From the IMG/VR virus record IMGVR_UViG_2531839027_000011: a stretch of 16,154 nt of DNA; one strand, 5' to 3'. The DNA comes from a virus. Taxonomy: Duplodnaviria; Heunggongvirae; Uroviricota; Caudoviricetes. Below are positions 12,001 to 15,000 of this stretch, in pieces (within the stretch, counting starts at the first letter, position 1; each line of letters opens with the position of its first letter). Position numbers: made by a program.

Positions 12001-15000
12001 TTTTGGGTTGAATGTACGTAAAAATCCCCAGCAGTGAAATTTGAGCGCGTAAGCACAATTCTGAGGGGCTTTTTGTCTGTAGGTTAGGCAGTGTAACTAA
12101 CAATACAAGAAGTTAGCTCTGACTAACTATTTAATTAACTTTTCAATCTAATTGCGTTAGATATTATACCCTAACGCAATATTTTTAATTCAATAATGTC
12201 TGTAAATTGTTATTACTTATAATTATACATTTAACTATATCTACATTGGCTGCTTCCAATTACTACTTACGTAACGGAATCTCGGATCCTCTGTTTTTGG
12301 CTCGGTATAATAAGAATCATCAATAGTAAAGTTCGACGCTAATTTATCCCGAAGCCCACCTAAACGTTCAATGCTTGTTAGTTCGTTAGTAACATCCTTG
12401 AAAACGGTAGAAAATGCTTTATGTTGTTTAGACTTCATAAATTCAGGAGTGCTCAGTGCAAACTCTTTATCAGGCAAACCTGGAATACCCACGAGTCCTG
12501 TCAATGAATTTATACATTTTATCAAAAAACTGCCTTGAATACCTTGATTTGATGGAACACCGTAGCTTCGTTTAATATCTCCAGATATTTTATCTAAATC
12601 ACTTAGTAATTTTGTTACTTTTTTATTTCCTGCACTTATCCCCGATTCATCGTAGGTCACATGAATCTCTCGGATTACATCTCGACACGTACGAAAATGA
12701 TCATGTGTTCTAAGCTCTAAAGCTGAATTGATAACTTGAGAGACATTTCCTGTTTCGTTTGCTAGCCATGCAGAAAATATTGGTAAATCTAATGAAATAG
12801 TAGATGTGCGTCCATGATCTACAATTTCAGATCTTGCAGTACTGATTTTATCAGACAACGATTGCACCAACCTTGCAGTATAATCATGACCAAAAGCACC
12901 TGTTTTTTTCATCCAATGCAATTGATATGCATGCCTTATTGGATGAATAAATGAGTCTGCTTTAAAATGCTTAGCAATGACGCTGTAATAAATAGATTTA
13001 TATGCCAACCAATTTAGCGATGCGATAAACATTTCAAGTGAACGAGTCATACCTCCTTTACCGCGAGTAGATTTTTCCCTTTCTAGTTCAAATTCACGCT
13101 CAGTATATTCATGTCCAGATGAACTCACTAGCTTCACATCGGTTGACCAGTACCCTTTCGTATCAGAAGCATCTGATAATTCATTAAAAATCGATGCACT
13201 TAGTTCACTATATTTCGCATATTCAGGAGTACCGGGCTGACCAAGCATTTTCATTGTTAAGTAATACACGCTAGACCGAAGATCCCATGTGCAAATCATA
13301 TTCAGCTTAAGCATCTCTACAAGTTGCCTAAAATCATCGTCAACAAACTCCCCACCTCTAATTTCGGAAGTAATTTGCCGAGATTCAACTTGTGCTAACT
13401 GATCAAGTTCACTGAGTTGAAAATCACTTTCAGATACAAATTTAATAAAGTCAAATTTAGCAATGCGTTTATCTCTATATTCTTTTTTATAATTATCTAC
13501 ACAGATCAGGGTATCGTAAAAAAGTATCGCTTGAATAAGATTTTCAAAAGCGACTAAATCTCCGTTAATAGTATCTGGATTCTTAACAAGAATATCACCC
13601 AGTGTTCTTTCGACTGCTGTTAACGAAGCATTATCAATCAACGCATAAGACATTAAACTACCTCCATTAGATAATATCTAATAACATTATATTTCAATTA
13701 GGTTTAAAAATTGTGATACTTATGACAGATTTGAGTGACATTTTATCAATCTACTGATTTTGATGGTGAAATTTATTAGAAGGTATGCGTAGTGCTACGG
13801 GAGAAATGAGAAACGCGCCCAGCAATGGCGCATCCTTTCTTAAGCAAGTTGGCTAGTATCTATAGCATCCATCCAATCAGGAGCAATTCCCAAACGTTCC
13901 GCGAACTCTTCATTGGTCACGTCTTCCATTGAGAGACTAGCCAGACAATCGTTAATTTCAGAATAGACGGGGGAAAGTAATAGGTATTCCCGCAACTCTT
14001 TCAGGTCTTTTTCCATCTTAACACTCCTTGTTAATAGACCGTCGAACAATGGTACAGATTTGTACCATTCCAAGTACTGGCAAGCAACCCCACCAGCACA
14101 ACAAATTATCTCATACGGTAAAAACGGTGTCGGGCTGTTTCTTTCGGCTAGCTCAATATATCACCTTAAACACCAGCCGTTATCATTGTCTCAATTGGGT
14201 ATACCGTAATGACAAGGTGATACAAAGTCTCAATAGGGTTGTATAGGAACATTTTGACTACACAAACTGCATTATGTATCATTTGCACTTATATTCACAA
14301 CCCTTTTGAGACAATGCAATGAACGTTAGAATTTACTGCCGAGCATCAACTGAGGGGCAACACGCTGATCGAGCACTTACCAGCCTACGTGAATTTTCAA
14401 AATCAAAAGGCTGGCAGATTGCAGGAGAGTATATAGAAAATGCTAGCGGGGCGAAGCTTGAGCGCGTAGAGCTTATGCGGCTATTGTCTGAAGCCCAGTC
14501 CGGCGATCTGTTGCTAGTGGAAGCTATAGATCGTCTGAGTCGCCTAGAACATAGTGCATGGGTCGAACTGAAAGATACGCTCAACCGAAAAGGGTTAATC
14601 ATCGTATCAATGGATTTACCAACGAGCTGGCAGATGGTCGAGATGGCAGGCAATGATCTAACCAGCGGCATCCTGAGAGCCGTAAATGCCATGTTGATTG
14701 ATATCCTTGCCACAATGGCACGGCAGGATTACGAAACACGCCGTAAACGCCAACAGCAAGGCATTGAACGAGCTAAAAGCGAAGGCATATACATTGGGAG
14801 GGCGAAAAATCAGGAAGCCCGAGAGATCGTTAGAGAGATGTTGGAGCAAGGAGTAAAACCTGAACTCATCATGAAGGCAGCAGGAATCAGCCGAGCGACT
14901 TACTACCGGATAAAAAACGAGCTATTGATCGTAAAATCAGAATAAAATTTGAAAGGTCGTCAGGCTTGTTTCATCAGGTAAAAACCAGCATTTCTGATCA

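What the first reader, a model, noticed from the sequence alone, without database searches (positions are those of the whole stretch)
14184..14945. Serine recombinase preceded by a res-like triple repeat, with its own promoter flanked by inverted copies
Three copies of a 16-20 bp motif lie within 135 bp immediately upstream of the recombinase start, two direct and one inverted, and the inverted pair brackets the TTGACT/TATCAT promoter. This resembles a multi-subsite res site of a resolvase (autoregulation plus resolution). Alternatively it could be a short invertible promoter segment able to point either at the recombinase or back at the divergent small-ORF/470-aa module, giving phase-variable expression of the cargo.
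Basis: partly seen in the sequence, partly recalled or inferred. Interest (0 to 1): 0.6.

Follow-up and report, generated by a model that had tools for sequence, protein, structure and literature searches.

The report
Resolvase gene with its res site
This is an ordinary serine resolvase gene preceded by its own multi-part recombination (res) site, sitting at the end of a decayed mobile island in E. coli O157:H7; it is not an invertible promoter switch.

Summary
GTCTCAAWWGGGT occurs exactly three times in the window (14188+, 14227+, 14300-), none expected by chance. The copies bracket a predicted TTGACT/TATCAT promoter just upstream of a 208-aa serine recombinase.

The res-site reading is supported. 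In about 60 of 85 homologous loci, a dyad with the core TTnGGGTA|TACCTnA lies 95-155 nt upstream of the start codon. Copy A is its left arm (site I, 14187-14214, centre TA 14200/14201). Each locus's own arm sequence recurs at fixed offsets on the gene side only. Copies B (+30) and C (+105) fit that pattern. The protein is closest to Sin among solved structures, and the half-site resembles the repeats upstream of a staphylococcal Sin-like gene.

The invertible-promoter reading is rejected. None of 548 E. coli genomes carrying the locus has either inversion, and only one crossover-type site exists.

The gene is the last one of an argW-integrated island: integrase, rolling-circle Rep, a variable cargo slot, small ORF, res, resolvase, attR. 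The O157 copy is truncated. The likely role is multimer resolution plus autorepression, as shown for SGI1; that role is inferred, not tested here. This is a new member of a known kind and of low interest.

The parts
14187..14214 (.). Candidate res site I, the crossover site. It is a 28-bp dyad, TGTCTCAATTGGGTA|TACCGTAATGACA, with its centre between 14200 and 14201 (TA).
   Evidence: A core TTnGGGTA|TACCTnA with locus-specific outer arms is found 95-155 nt upstream of the start codon in about 60 of 85 homologous loci. There is a single copy in the window.
14226..14259 (.). Candidate accessory site II, 34 bp (AGTC...GACT). The strong left arm is copy B (14226-14239). The weak right arm (14247-14259) overlaps the -35 hexamer. 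The centre lies about 42 bp, or four helical turns, from the centre of site I.
   Evidence: A same-orientation copy of each locus's own half-site sits at +30 to +33 in 19 loci, and an opposite-strand copy at +55/56 in 17. The B sequence is conserved in close relatives. The right arm is an inference.
14254..14282 (+). Predicted sigma-70 promoter of the recombinase gene: -35 TTGACT (14254-14259) and -10 TATCAT (14277-14282).
   Evidence: Consensus scan, 10 of 12 matches. TTGAC(A/T) and a TATCAT-like hexamer are retained in relatives of 61-96% identity. No experimental evidence.
14275..14313 (.). Candidate accessory site III. The weak left arm TGTATCATTTGCA (14275-14287) overlaps the -10 hexamer. 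The strong right arm is copy C (14300-14313, minus strand) and overlaps the 5' UTR and Shine-Dalgarno region.
   Evidence: The +79(+)/+105(-) pair recurs in the window, L006, L009 and L036 with locus-specific arm sequences. In L009 and L010 the left arm reads TGTATCATTTGGGTA and TGTATACTTTGGGTA.
14319..14945 (+). Small serine recombinase (resolvase), 208 aa.
   Evidence: Pfam PF00239 at E=2e-23. The best solved relative is Sin, 2r0q, E=5e-16, aligned over residues 6-201. The gene is intact in all five enterobacterial alleles compared, with dN/dS of 0.05-0.14.
13840..14016 (-). Small divergent ORF (58 aa) next to res. It has no confident family assignment.
   Evidence: Annotated as a CDS in RefSeq. 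PHROG 35119, function unknown. Kept beside the recombinase in Klebsiella. Replaced by a different 68-aa ORF in Z1323-type islands.
12241..13653 (-). The 470-aa cargo gene, which occupies the variable slot of the island.
   Evidence: No hit in Pfam, NCBIfam, PADLOC or PDB. PHROG 13435, function unknown. Other strains carry GapS6a/b or an 821-aa plus 330-aa pair in the same slot.
10876..11571 (+). The 5'-truncated rolling-circle replication initiator gene of the island.
   Evidence: Window 10853-12078 is 94% identical to L088 2564-3797. The full-length L088 protein hits PF23343 REP_ORF2-G2P.
15080..15101 (+). attR-like repeat of the 3' end of argW, marking the right end of the island.
   Evidence: TTCGATTCCTGCAGGGACACCA matches argW 6528-6550.
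6476..6550 (+). tRNA-Arg (CCU) gene argW, the integration site at the left end of the island region.
   Evidence: ARAGORN and RefSeq annotation.

Best explanation
Window 14187-14945 is a resolution module: a small serine resolvase of the Sin-like branch together with its cognate multi-subsite res site. Resolvase dimers are proposed to bind three subsites: site I (14187-14214, strand exchange at the central TA 14200/14201), site II (14226-14259) and site III (14275-14313). When two res copies lie in direct repeat on one supercoiled molecule, the accessory sites would build a synaptosome that activates cleavage at site I and deletes the intervening DNA. That situation arises in multimers of the excised, rolling-circle-replicating island, or in tandem copies of it. 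The -35 hexamer lies in the right arm of site II, the -10 in the left arm of site III, and copy C covers the 5' UTR, so the same binding should repress the resolvase's own promoter. What is shown: the repeats, the recombinase family, conservation of site architecture across the family, the absence of inverted alleles, and the island context. What is inferred: the exact subsite borders, the weak arms, the crossover point, autorepression, and the biological role. The O157:H7 copy sits in a decayed island (Rep truncated) with one res copy, so it is probably idle there.
For: The repeats are exact and non-random. The protein is a serine recombinase with the conserved motif residues invariant in the alignment. 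Its best solved relatives are Sin (E=5e-16) and gamma-delta resolvase (E=2e-10), and no DNA invertase appears in that hit list. Plasmid homologues are numerous, including Enterobacter IncFIB plasmids at 82% and pWW0 at 47%. A conserved TTnGGGTA|TACCTnA dyad lies at -95 to -155 in about 60 of 85 loci from alpha-, beta- and gammaproteobacteria. This includes 30 loci that were not used to build the matrix. Each locus's own arm sequence recurs at +30-33(+), +55/56(-), +65/66(-), +85(-), +93-95(-) and +105(-). No offset recurs on the far side of site I: 98 hits against 38. The arm sequences differ between clades (TGTCTC, GGTTCG, GTATCA, TTTTCAC) while the positions are kept. The repeats upstream of a staphylococcal Sin-like gene read TGTATGATTAGGGTGTA, against TGTCTCAATTGGGTATA in the window. 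The motif travels with the recombinase whatever the upstream neighbour is: CDF transporter, GapS6, or hypothetical genes. The gene is under purifying selection, dN/dS 0.05-0.14. There is a precedent: the res/resolvase of genomic island SGI1 is a three-subsite Tn3-like system that removes island multimers (PMC12217951).
Against: No binding, cleavage or resolution data exist for this protein or any close relative that I could identify. The partner arms of sites II and III are weak, 7 of 13 and 9 of 13 matches, so the three-dimer model is not proven. B could instead be the first unit of a Sin-style direct-repeat site II, AGTCTCAATAGGGT|TGTATAGGAACAT. The C-terminal HTH is below Pfam's threshold. 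The II-III spacing of about 51 bp centre to centre differs from Tn3 and gamma-delta. O157:H7 has one res copy and a truncated Rep, so no substrate for resolution is evident in this genome.
Confidence: 0.8

Rival explanations
1. Invertible promoter switch. The recombinase inverts the 54-99 bp segment between copy C and copy A or B. This flips the TTGACT/TATCAT promoter towards the divergent small ORF and the 470-aa cargo gene, giving phase variation.
For: Inverted copies do bracket the promoter. PHROG labels the family 'DNA invertase'. From my own knowledge, serine recombinases that invert short promoter segments exist, such as Mpi of Bacteroides; the NCBIfam Mpi model hits only at 38 bits against a 272-bit cut-off.
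Against: No inverted allele was found in 548 E. coli complete genomes. B and C lack the conserved GGGTA|TACC crossover core, and only one such dyad exists in the window. The same +30(+)/+105(-) arrangement is a fixed feature of diverged homologues, many of them on plasmids. Identity to Pin-type invertases is only 28%. A separate leftward promoter candidate exists at 14133-14105. One caveat: assemblies show only the majority orientation.
Confidence: 0.03
2. Operators only. In this chromosomal remnant the protein acts solely as a DNA-binding autorepressor or local regulator at the three repeats, and no longer recombines.
For: O157:H7 has a single res copy and a truncated Rep. The promoter is embedded in the sites.
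Against: The conserved catalytic-motif residues are retained and the whole gene is under purifying selection across lineages that carry intact islands. The crossover-type dyad core is strictly conserved, which repression alone would not require.
Confidence: 0.1
3. The repeats are binding sites for another regulator, for example the divergent 58-aa protein, and have nothing to do with the recombinase.
For: The small ORF is adjacent and divergent. Its AR_0006 orthologue shows a very weak sigma-70 region-4-like hit, E about 0.01.
Against: The repeats persist and co-vary with the recombinase in loci that lack this ORF, such as Enterobacter and Pseudomonas plasmids and the Z1323 island with a different small ORF.
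Confidence: 0.03

Closest known systems
Sin resolvase and resH of staphylococcal plasmids (PDB 2r0q; Mouw et al. 2008, PMC2428073)
   Same: Sin is the best solved relative, E=5e-16, aligned end to end, and of the same length class: 209 against 208 aa. The repeats upstream of a staphylococcal Sin-like gene are similar, TGTATGATTAGGGTGTA against TGTCTCAATTGGGTATA. The res lies directly upstream of the gene, and binding represses a promoter.
   Different: Sin res has two protein-binding subsites plus an HU/IHF-bound spacer, and its site II is a direct repeat (PMC2428073). Here the I-II gap is only 11 bp, and there is a third, inverted copy next to the start codon. That layout looks like a three-subsite site.
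Tn3 / gamma-delta resolvase res, and the SGI1 res system (PMC12217951)
   Same: All have roughly 110-130 bp of res upstream of the gene, with site I distal and site III beside the start codon. Site I is 28 bp with a central A/T dinucleotide, site II is about 34 bp, and the promoter lies inside res. SGI1 shows that a chromosomally integrated island can carry such a system to clear multimers.
   Different: The protein is more distant from these: gamma-delta E=2e-10 and Tn3 E=8e-8. The subsite spacings differ: I-II about 42 bp and II-III about 51 bp centre to centre. No Tn3-family transposase or terminal inverted repeats are present.
ParA-MRS multimer resolution system of RK2/RP4
   Same: It is a plasmid-borne small serine resolvase of 222 aa with a 106-bp site (PMC5698047). 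An RP4-type parA is 35% identical.
   Different: The region upstream of the RP4-type parA carries unrelated CATCGCCA...TGGCGATG-type repeats and no GGGTA|TACC core.
Hin/Gin/Cin/Pin DNA invertases
   Same: They belong to the same superfamily and share the generic PHROG label 'DNA invertase'.
   Different: Identity is only 28%. There is no pair of inverted crossover sites and no inverted alleles.

Membership tests
Small serine recombinase (resolvase/invertase superfamily) | N-terminal catalytic domain with the nucleophilic serine in a YxRxSxxxQ motif and the DRLxR motif | tested here: met
   PF00239 at E=2e-23. Y6, R8, S10, Q14, D71, R72 and R75 are invariant in 18 homologues.
Small serine recombinase (resolvase/invertase superfamily) | C-terminal helix-turn-helix DNA-binding domain | tested here: inconclusive
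   HTH_7 scores E=1e-3 and 19.5 bits, below the 23.8-bit cut-off. The alignment to Sin does run through its C-terminal domain to residue 201.
Resolvase with a multi-subsite res (Tn3 / gamma-delta type) | A dyad crossover site of about 28 bp with a central A/T dinucleotide, placed distal to the gene | tested here: met
   14187-14214 with a central TA. The core is conserved at -95 to -155 in about 60 of 85 loci.
Resolvase with a multi-subsite res (Tn3 / gamma-delta type) | Accessory binding sites between site I and the gene, at fixed, helically phased positions | tested here: met
   Own-arm copies are enriched at +30-33, +55/56, +85, +93-95 and +105, on the gene side only. Variants are shifted by about 10-11 bp.
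Resolvase with a multi-subsite res (Tn3 / gamma-delta type) | Each accessory subsite is a dyad bound by a dimer, giving three dimers in total | tested here: inconclusive
   One strong arm per subsite (B, C). The partner arms match only 7 of 13 and 9 of 13 positions.
Resolvase with a multi-subsite res (Tn3 / gamma-delta type) | Resolution between directly repeated res sites, with autorepression | not testable with these tools
   Requires in vivo or in vitro recombination and reporter assays.
Sin-type res (site I, HU/IHF spacer, direct-repeat site II) | Two subsites only, separated by an architectural-protein spacer of about 30 bp | tested here: not met
   The gap between site I and copy B is 11 bp, and a third copy (C) lies at +105.
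DNA invertase / invertible promoter | Two crossover sites in inverted orientation flanking the segment | tested here: not met
   There is only one site with the conserved core. B and C lack it.
DNA invertase / invertible promoter | Both orientations occur in nature | tested here: not met
   Zero of 548 E. coli genomes carry either inversion. Minority subpopulations within cultures were not testable.
RP4 ParA-MRS | An MRS-type site upstream of parA | tested here: not met
   The repeat sequence is different and there is no shared core. Protein identity is 35%.

The most novel reading that the evidence does not exclude
The res site doubles as the junction at which cargo modules are swapped between islands and plasmids, by resolvase-mediated recombination between heterologous res sites (the 'shuffling function of resolvases' idea). 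This would make the argW island family a res-bounded carrier of exchangeable cargo, possibly defence genes. The hint is as follows. The AR_0006 and Z1323 islands have recombinase genes that differ by 1 nt in 627. Everything left of window position 14189, which lies inside the left arm of site I, is unrelated and carries different cargo. Two observations argue against it. The Citrobacter junction lies a few bases further out, near 14182. The O157 versus AR_0006 cargo swap ends at 13809, not at res.
Probability: 0.15. Interest if true: 0.5.

Novelty: new member of a known kind. Interest (0 to 1): 0.25.

Why it matters
The finding has little novelty but some practical use. It gives a coordinate-level annotation of a res site and autoregulated resolvase in E. 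coli O157:H7, where RefSeq says only 'recombinase family protein'. It defines a conserved crossover core, TTnGGGTA|TACCTnA, and a subsite layout for a widespread proteobacterial, mostly plasmid-borne, branch of Sin-like resolvases. It also shows that the gene marks the right end of a small argW-integrated, rolling-circle-replicating island. That island has a variable cargo slot that holds GapS6 in some strains and unannotated genes, including the 470-aa gene, in others. Those unannotated genes are candidates for defence-gene discovery. The module could also serve as a small, unidirectional excision tool.

Tried and rejected
- Invertible promoter: I built the A-C and B-C inverted sequences and searched 5426 E. 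coli genomes. No inverted allele was found.
- RP4 ParA-type res: the upstream region of an RP4-like parA shares no core with the window.
- Second res or site I copy, or a motif copy at the left edge of the cargo slot: none. The only extra match, 13690-13703, has 3 mismatches and is at chance level.
- Structured RNA or a leader in the intergenic region: Rfam found nothing, and the 5' UTR folds no better than shuffled sequence.
- Identity of the 470-aa and 58-aa cargo proteins: no Pfam, NCBIfam, PADLOC or PDB hit, only PHROGs of unknown function. No intact phage in the phage collection carries the 470-aa gene.
- Literature on the island family (argW, defence hotspots): nothing relevant in the E. 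coli defence-island paper.
- A pairwise comparison with the staphylococcal Sin-like ORF failed on coordinates. I relied on the PDB alignment instead.
- I did not verify that the Pseudomonas syringae plasmid homologues (47% identity) are the StbA resolvases reported to stabilise plasmids (PMC6354349).

Full report
**Observation.** Window 14184-14316 contains three copies of one motif. The repeat finder reports a direct pair at 14188-14200 and 14227-14239. It also reports inverted pairs at 14184-14200 / 14300-14316 and at 14227-14242 / 14297-14312. The 13-mer GTCTCAAWWGGGT matches exactly three times in the window, at 14188(+), 14227(+) and 14300(-). It matched zero times in 200 dinucleotide-preserving shuffles. 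A sigma-70-like promoter, TTGACT-17-TATCAT (14254-14282, 10 of 12 matches), lies between the second and third copies. The ORF 14319-14945 encodes a 208-aa serine recombinase, PF00239 at E=2e-23. The YxRxSTxxQ and DRLSR motif residues are invariant in an alignment of 18 homologues.

**Source of the window.** The window is E. coli O157:H7 chromosome, 100% identical to many O157 genomes. The region lies at the argW tRNA locus. RefSeq calls the gene only 'recombinase family protein'.

**The recombinase.**
- Among solved structures the best match is the staphylococcal resolvase Sin (2r0q, E=5e-16, aligned over residues 6-201 of 208).
- Gamma-delta resolvase (E=2e-10) and Tn3 resolvase (E=8e-8) follow. 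No DNA invertase appears in that hit list.
- Pin-type invertases of E. coli phages are only 28% identical, and an RP4-type ParA resolvase is 35% identical.
- Closer homologues are common on plasmids: Enterobacter IncFIB plasmids at 82%, a 5.8-kb Erwinia plasmid at 61%, and pWW0 and many Pseudomonas plasmids at 46-48%.
- The gene is intact and under purifying selection in enterobacterial alleles, with dN/dS of 0.05-0.14.

**The repeats in homologous loci.** I collected 80 loci from one-genome-per-species contigs, plus four plasmid or chromosomal loci.
- *Site I.* Thirty-two upstream regions contained GTATAC at -98 to -190. Aligned on it, they gave the consensus TTnGGGTA|TACCTnA, flanked by locus-specific inverted arms. 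A matrix built from these found the same core (GGGTA|TGCC, GGGTA|CACC and similar) at -95 to -155 in about 30 further loci. In total about 60 of 85 loci have it. In the window this dyad is TGTCTCAATTGGGTA|TACCGTAATGACA. It spans 14187-14214, is 28 bp long, and has a central TA at 14200/14201. Copy A is therefore the left arm of a conserved dyad with the size and central dinucleotide expected of a resolvase crossover site (site I).
- *Accessory copies.* I then asked whether each locus's own site I arm recurs nearby. Matches of at least 9 of 13 positions pile up at fixed offsets on the gene side: +30 to +33 on the same strand as the left arm (19 loci), +55/56 on the opposite strand (17), +65/66 (7), +85 (6), +93 to +95 (14) and +105 (5). 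No offset recurs on the other side of site I, where there were 38 hits against 98.
- *Co-variation.* The arm sequence differs between clades (TGTCTC, GGTTCG, GTATCA, TTTTCAC) while the positions are kept. Some clades have the whole accessory set shifted by about 10-11 bp, one helical turn.
- *The window.* Copy B sits at +30(+) and copy C at +105(-), so both fit the family pattern. A weaker arm at +79(+), TGTATCATTTGCA, pairs with C. In relatives it reads TGTATCATTTGGGTA.
- *Link to Sin.* The repeats upstream of a staphylococcal Sin-like gene read TGTATGATTAGGGTGTA, close to the window's TGTCTCAATTGGGTATA.
- *Neighbours.* The motif follows the recombinase regardless of the upstream neighbour. 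This argues that the recombinase, not the divergent small protein, is what binds it.

**Proposed anatomy.** This part is inferred.

| Element | Coordinates | Notes |
|---|---|---|
| Site I | 14187-14214 | 28-bp dyad; copy A is the left arm |
| Site II | 14226-14259 | 34 bp; copy B plus a weak arm covering the -35 |
| Site III | 14275-14313 | weak arm covering the -10, plus copy C over the 5' UTR and Shine-Dalgarno region |

The centres of sites I and II are about 42 bp, or four helical turns, apart. The layout resembles Tn3, gamma-delta and SGI1: site I is distal, site III abuts the start codon, and the promoter lies inside res (PMC12217951). It does not resemble the two-subsite Sin layout with an HU spacer (PMC2428073), even though the protein and half-site are Sin-like. 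The weak partner arms leave the dimer count unproven.

**Test of the invertible-promoter alternative.** I built the sequences expected after A-C and B-C inversion and searched 5426 complete E. coli genomes.
- All 548 genomes with the locus match the native order, at up to 100% identity.
- The best full-length matches to the inverted constructs are 86.9% and 90.9%, which is simply the native allele aligned through the mismatched segment.
- B and C lack the crossover core, and only one such dyad exists in the window.
- No Rfam family or stable RNA fold is present.

The switch model is therefore rejected, with one caveat: assemblies do not reveal minority orientations.

**Context.**
- *Right end of the island.* A 22-nt repeat of the argW 3' end lies at 15080-15101, so the recombinase is the last gene of an argW-integrated island.
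- *Intact copies.* Strains AR_0006 and Z1323CEC0003, and a Logan contig, show the order: tyrosine integrase, small HTH proteins, rolling-circle Rep (PF23343), a variable slot, a small ORF, res, recombinase, attR.
- *The variable slot.* It holds GapS6a/b in Z1323, an 821-aa plus 330-aa pair in AR_0006, and the 470-aa gene in O157 and in Klebsiella variicola. In Klebsiella the module sits beside a Type ISP restriction enzyme.
- *The O157 copy is decayed.* The Rep gene is 5'-truncated (ORF 10876-11571; homology 10853-12078), and it abuts fragments of P22-like ejection and needle genes.
- *IS1203 insertions.* In O157 strain F8492, IS1203 interrupts copy B at 14226-14233. Strain MA11 also has an IS1203 within the searched stretch; I did not map its position.

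**Mechanism and role.** The best-supported explanation is a resolution system with autorepression. After excision the island replicates as a circle. Multimers carry res sites in direct repeat, and the resolvase reduces them to monomers. The same has been shown experimentally for the SGI1 island (PMC12217951). This role is inferred. In O157:H7, with a single res copy and a truncated Rep, the module probably has no substrate.

**Residual oddity.** The AR_0006 and Z1323 recombinase genes differ by one nucleotide in 627. Yet their DNA becomes unrelated left of window position 14189, inside the left arm of site I. This could reflect exchange at res. However, the Citrobacter junction lies near 14182, and the O157 versus AR_0006 cargo swap ends at 13809. 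The junctions are therefore not uniform, and I rate res-mediated cargo shuffling at about 15%.

**Verdict.** The res-site interpretation is supported, and the invertible-promoter alternative is not. This is a new member, in an island context, of a well-known kind of system, and its interest is low.

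Noticed in passing
window 6476-15101; L086, L088, L091, L096: The recombinase closes a small argW-integrated island (integrase, HTH proteins, rolling-circle Rep, cargo, small ORF, res, resolvase, attR). The slot between Rep and the small ORF is variable. It holds the 470-aa gene in O157 and Klebsiella, GapS6a/b in Z1323 and a Logan contig, and an 821-aa plus 330-aa pair in AR_0006. The Klebsiella copy lies next to a Type ISP restriction enzyme. It looks like a defence-cargo hotspot.
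   Followed up: partly
window 12241-13653 (-): The 470-aa protein has no Pfam, NCBIfam, PADLOC or PDB match, only PHROG 13435 of unknown function. Its position in the variable slot makes it a candidate uncharacterised defence gene. No structure prediction was attempted.
   Followed up: partly
window 10876-11571 (+), homology 10853-12078: The ORF annotated as hypothetical is the C-terminal part of the island's rolling-circle replication initiator. The full-length homologue in L088 hits PF23343. Its 5' end is lost where it meets a truncated P22-like tail-needle gene, so the O157 island is a deletion remnant.
   Followed up: partly
window 14226-14233; L087 4696-6000: In O157:H7 strain F8492 an IS1203 (IS3 family) is inserted inside copy B. 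This separates site I from the accessory sites, much as In104 disrupts the SGI1 res. Strain MA11 also carries an IS1203 within the 11600-15500 stretch, but I did not map where.
   Followed up: partly
window 14182-14200; alignment A2: Islands whose recombinase genes are almost identical (AR_0006 and Z1323, 1 nt difference in 627) become unrelated left of position 14189, inside the left arm of site I. The Citrobacter junction is near 14182. This may be a trace of exchange at or near res.
   Followed up: partly
L024, L031, L034, L015 and other loci, upstream of the recombinase: Across the family, the accessory half-sites occur in two registers that differ by about 10-11 bp (+32/+56/+85 and +43/+66/+95). 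This is consistent with helical phasing of a synaptic complex.
   Followed up: partly
window 8044-9180 (-): This ORF combines an N-terminal P22 injectosome translocase domain (residues 12-217) with a weak, sub-threshold Acyl_transf_3-like match in the C-terminal part (residues 230-343). It looks like a chimeric reading frame created by a deletion.
   Followed up: no
L004 (E. coli KE47 chromosome), about 130 nt upstream of a 68%-identical recombinase: A second, paralogous resolvase/res module in E. coli has the site I sequence TGTCTCGTTTGGGTA|TACCTGATAAAGACA, with the same TGTCTC arms as the window. Cross-reactivity between the two systems is conceivable.
   Followed up: no
window 13690-13703 (+): A weak fourth motif-like sequence, TATTTCAATTAGGT, with 3 mismatches, lies just upstream of the 470-aa gene. 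It is at chance level: 4.6 such matches are expected in the window.
   Followed up: yes
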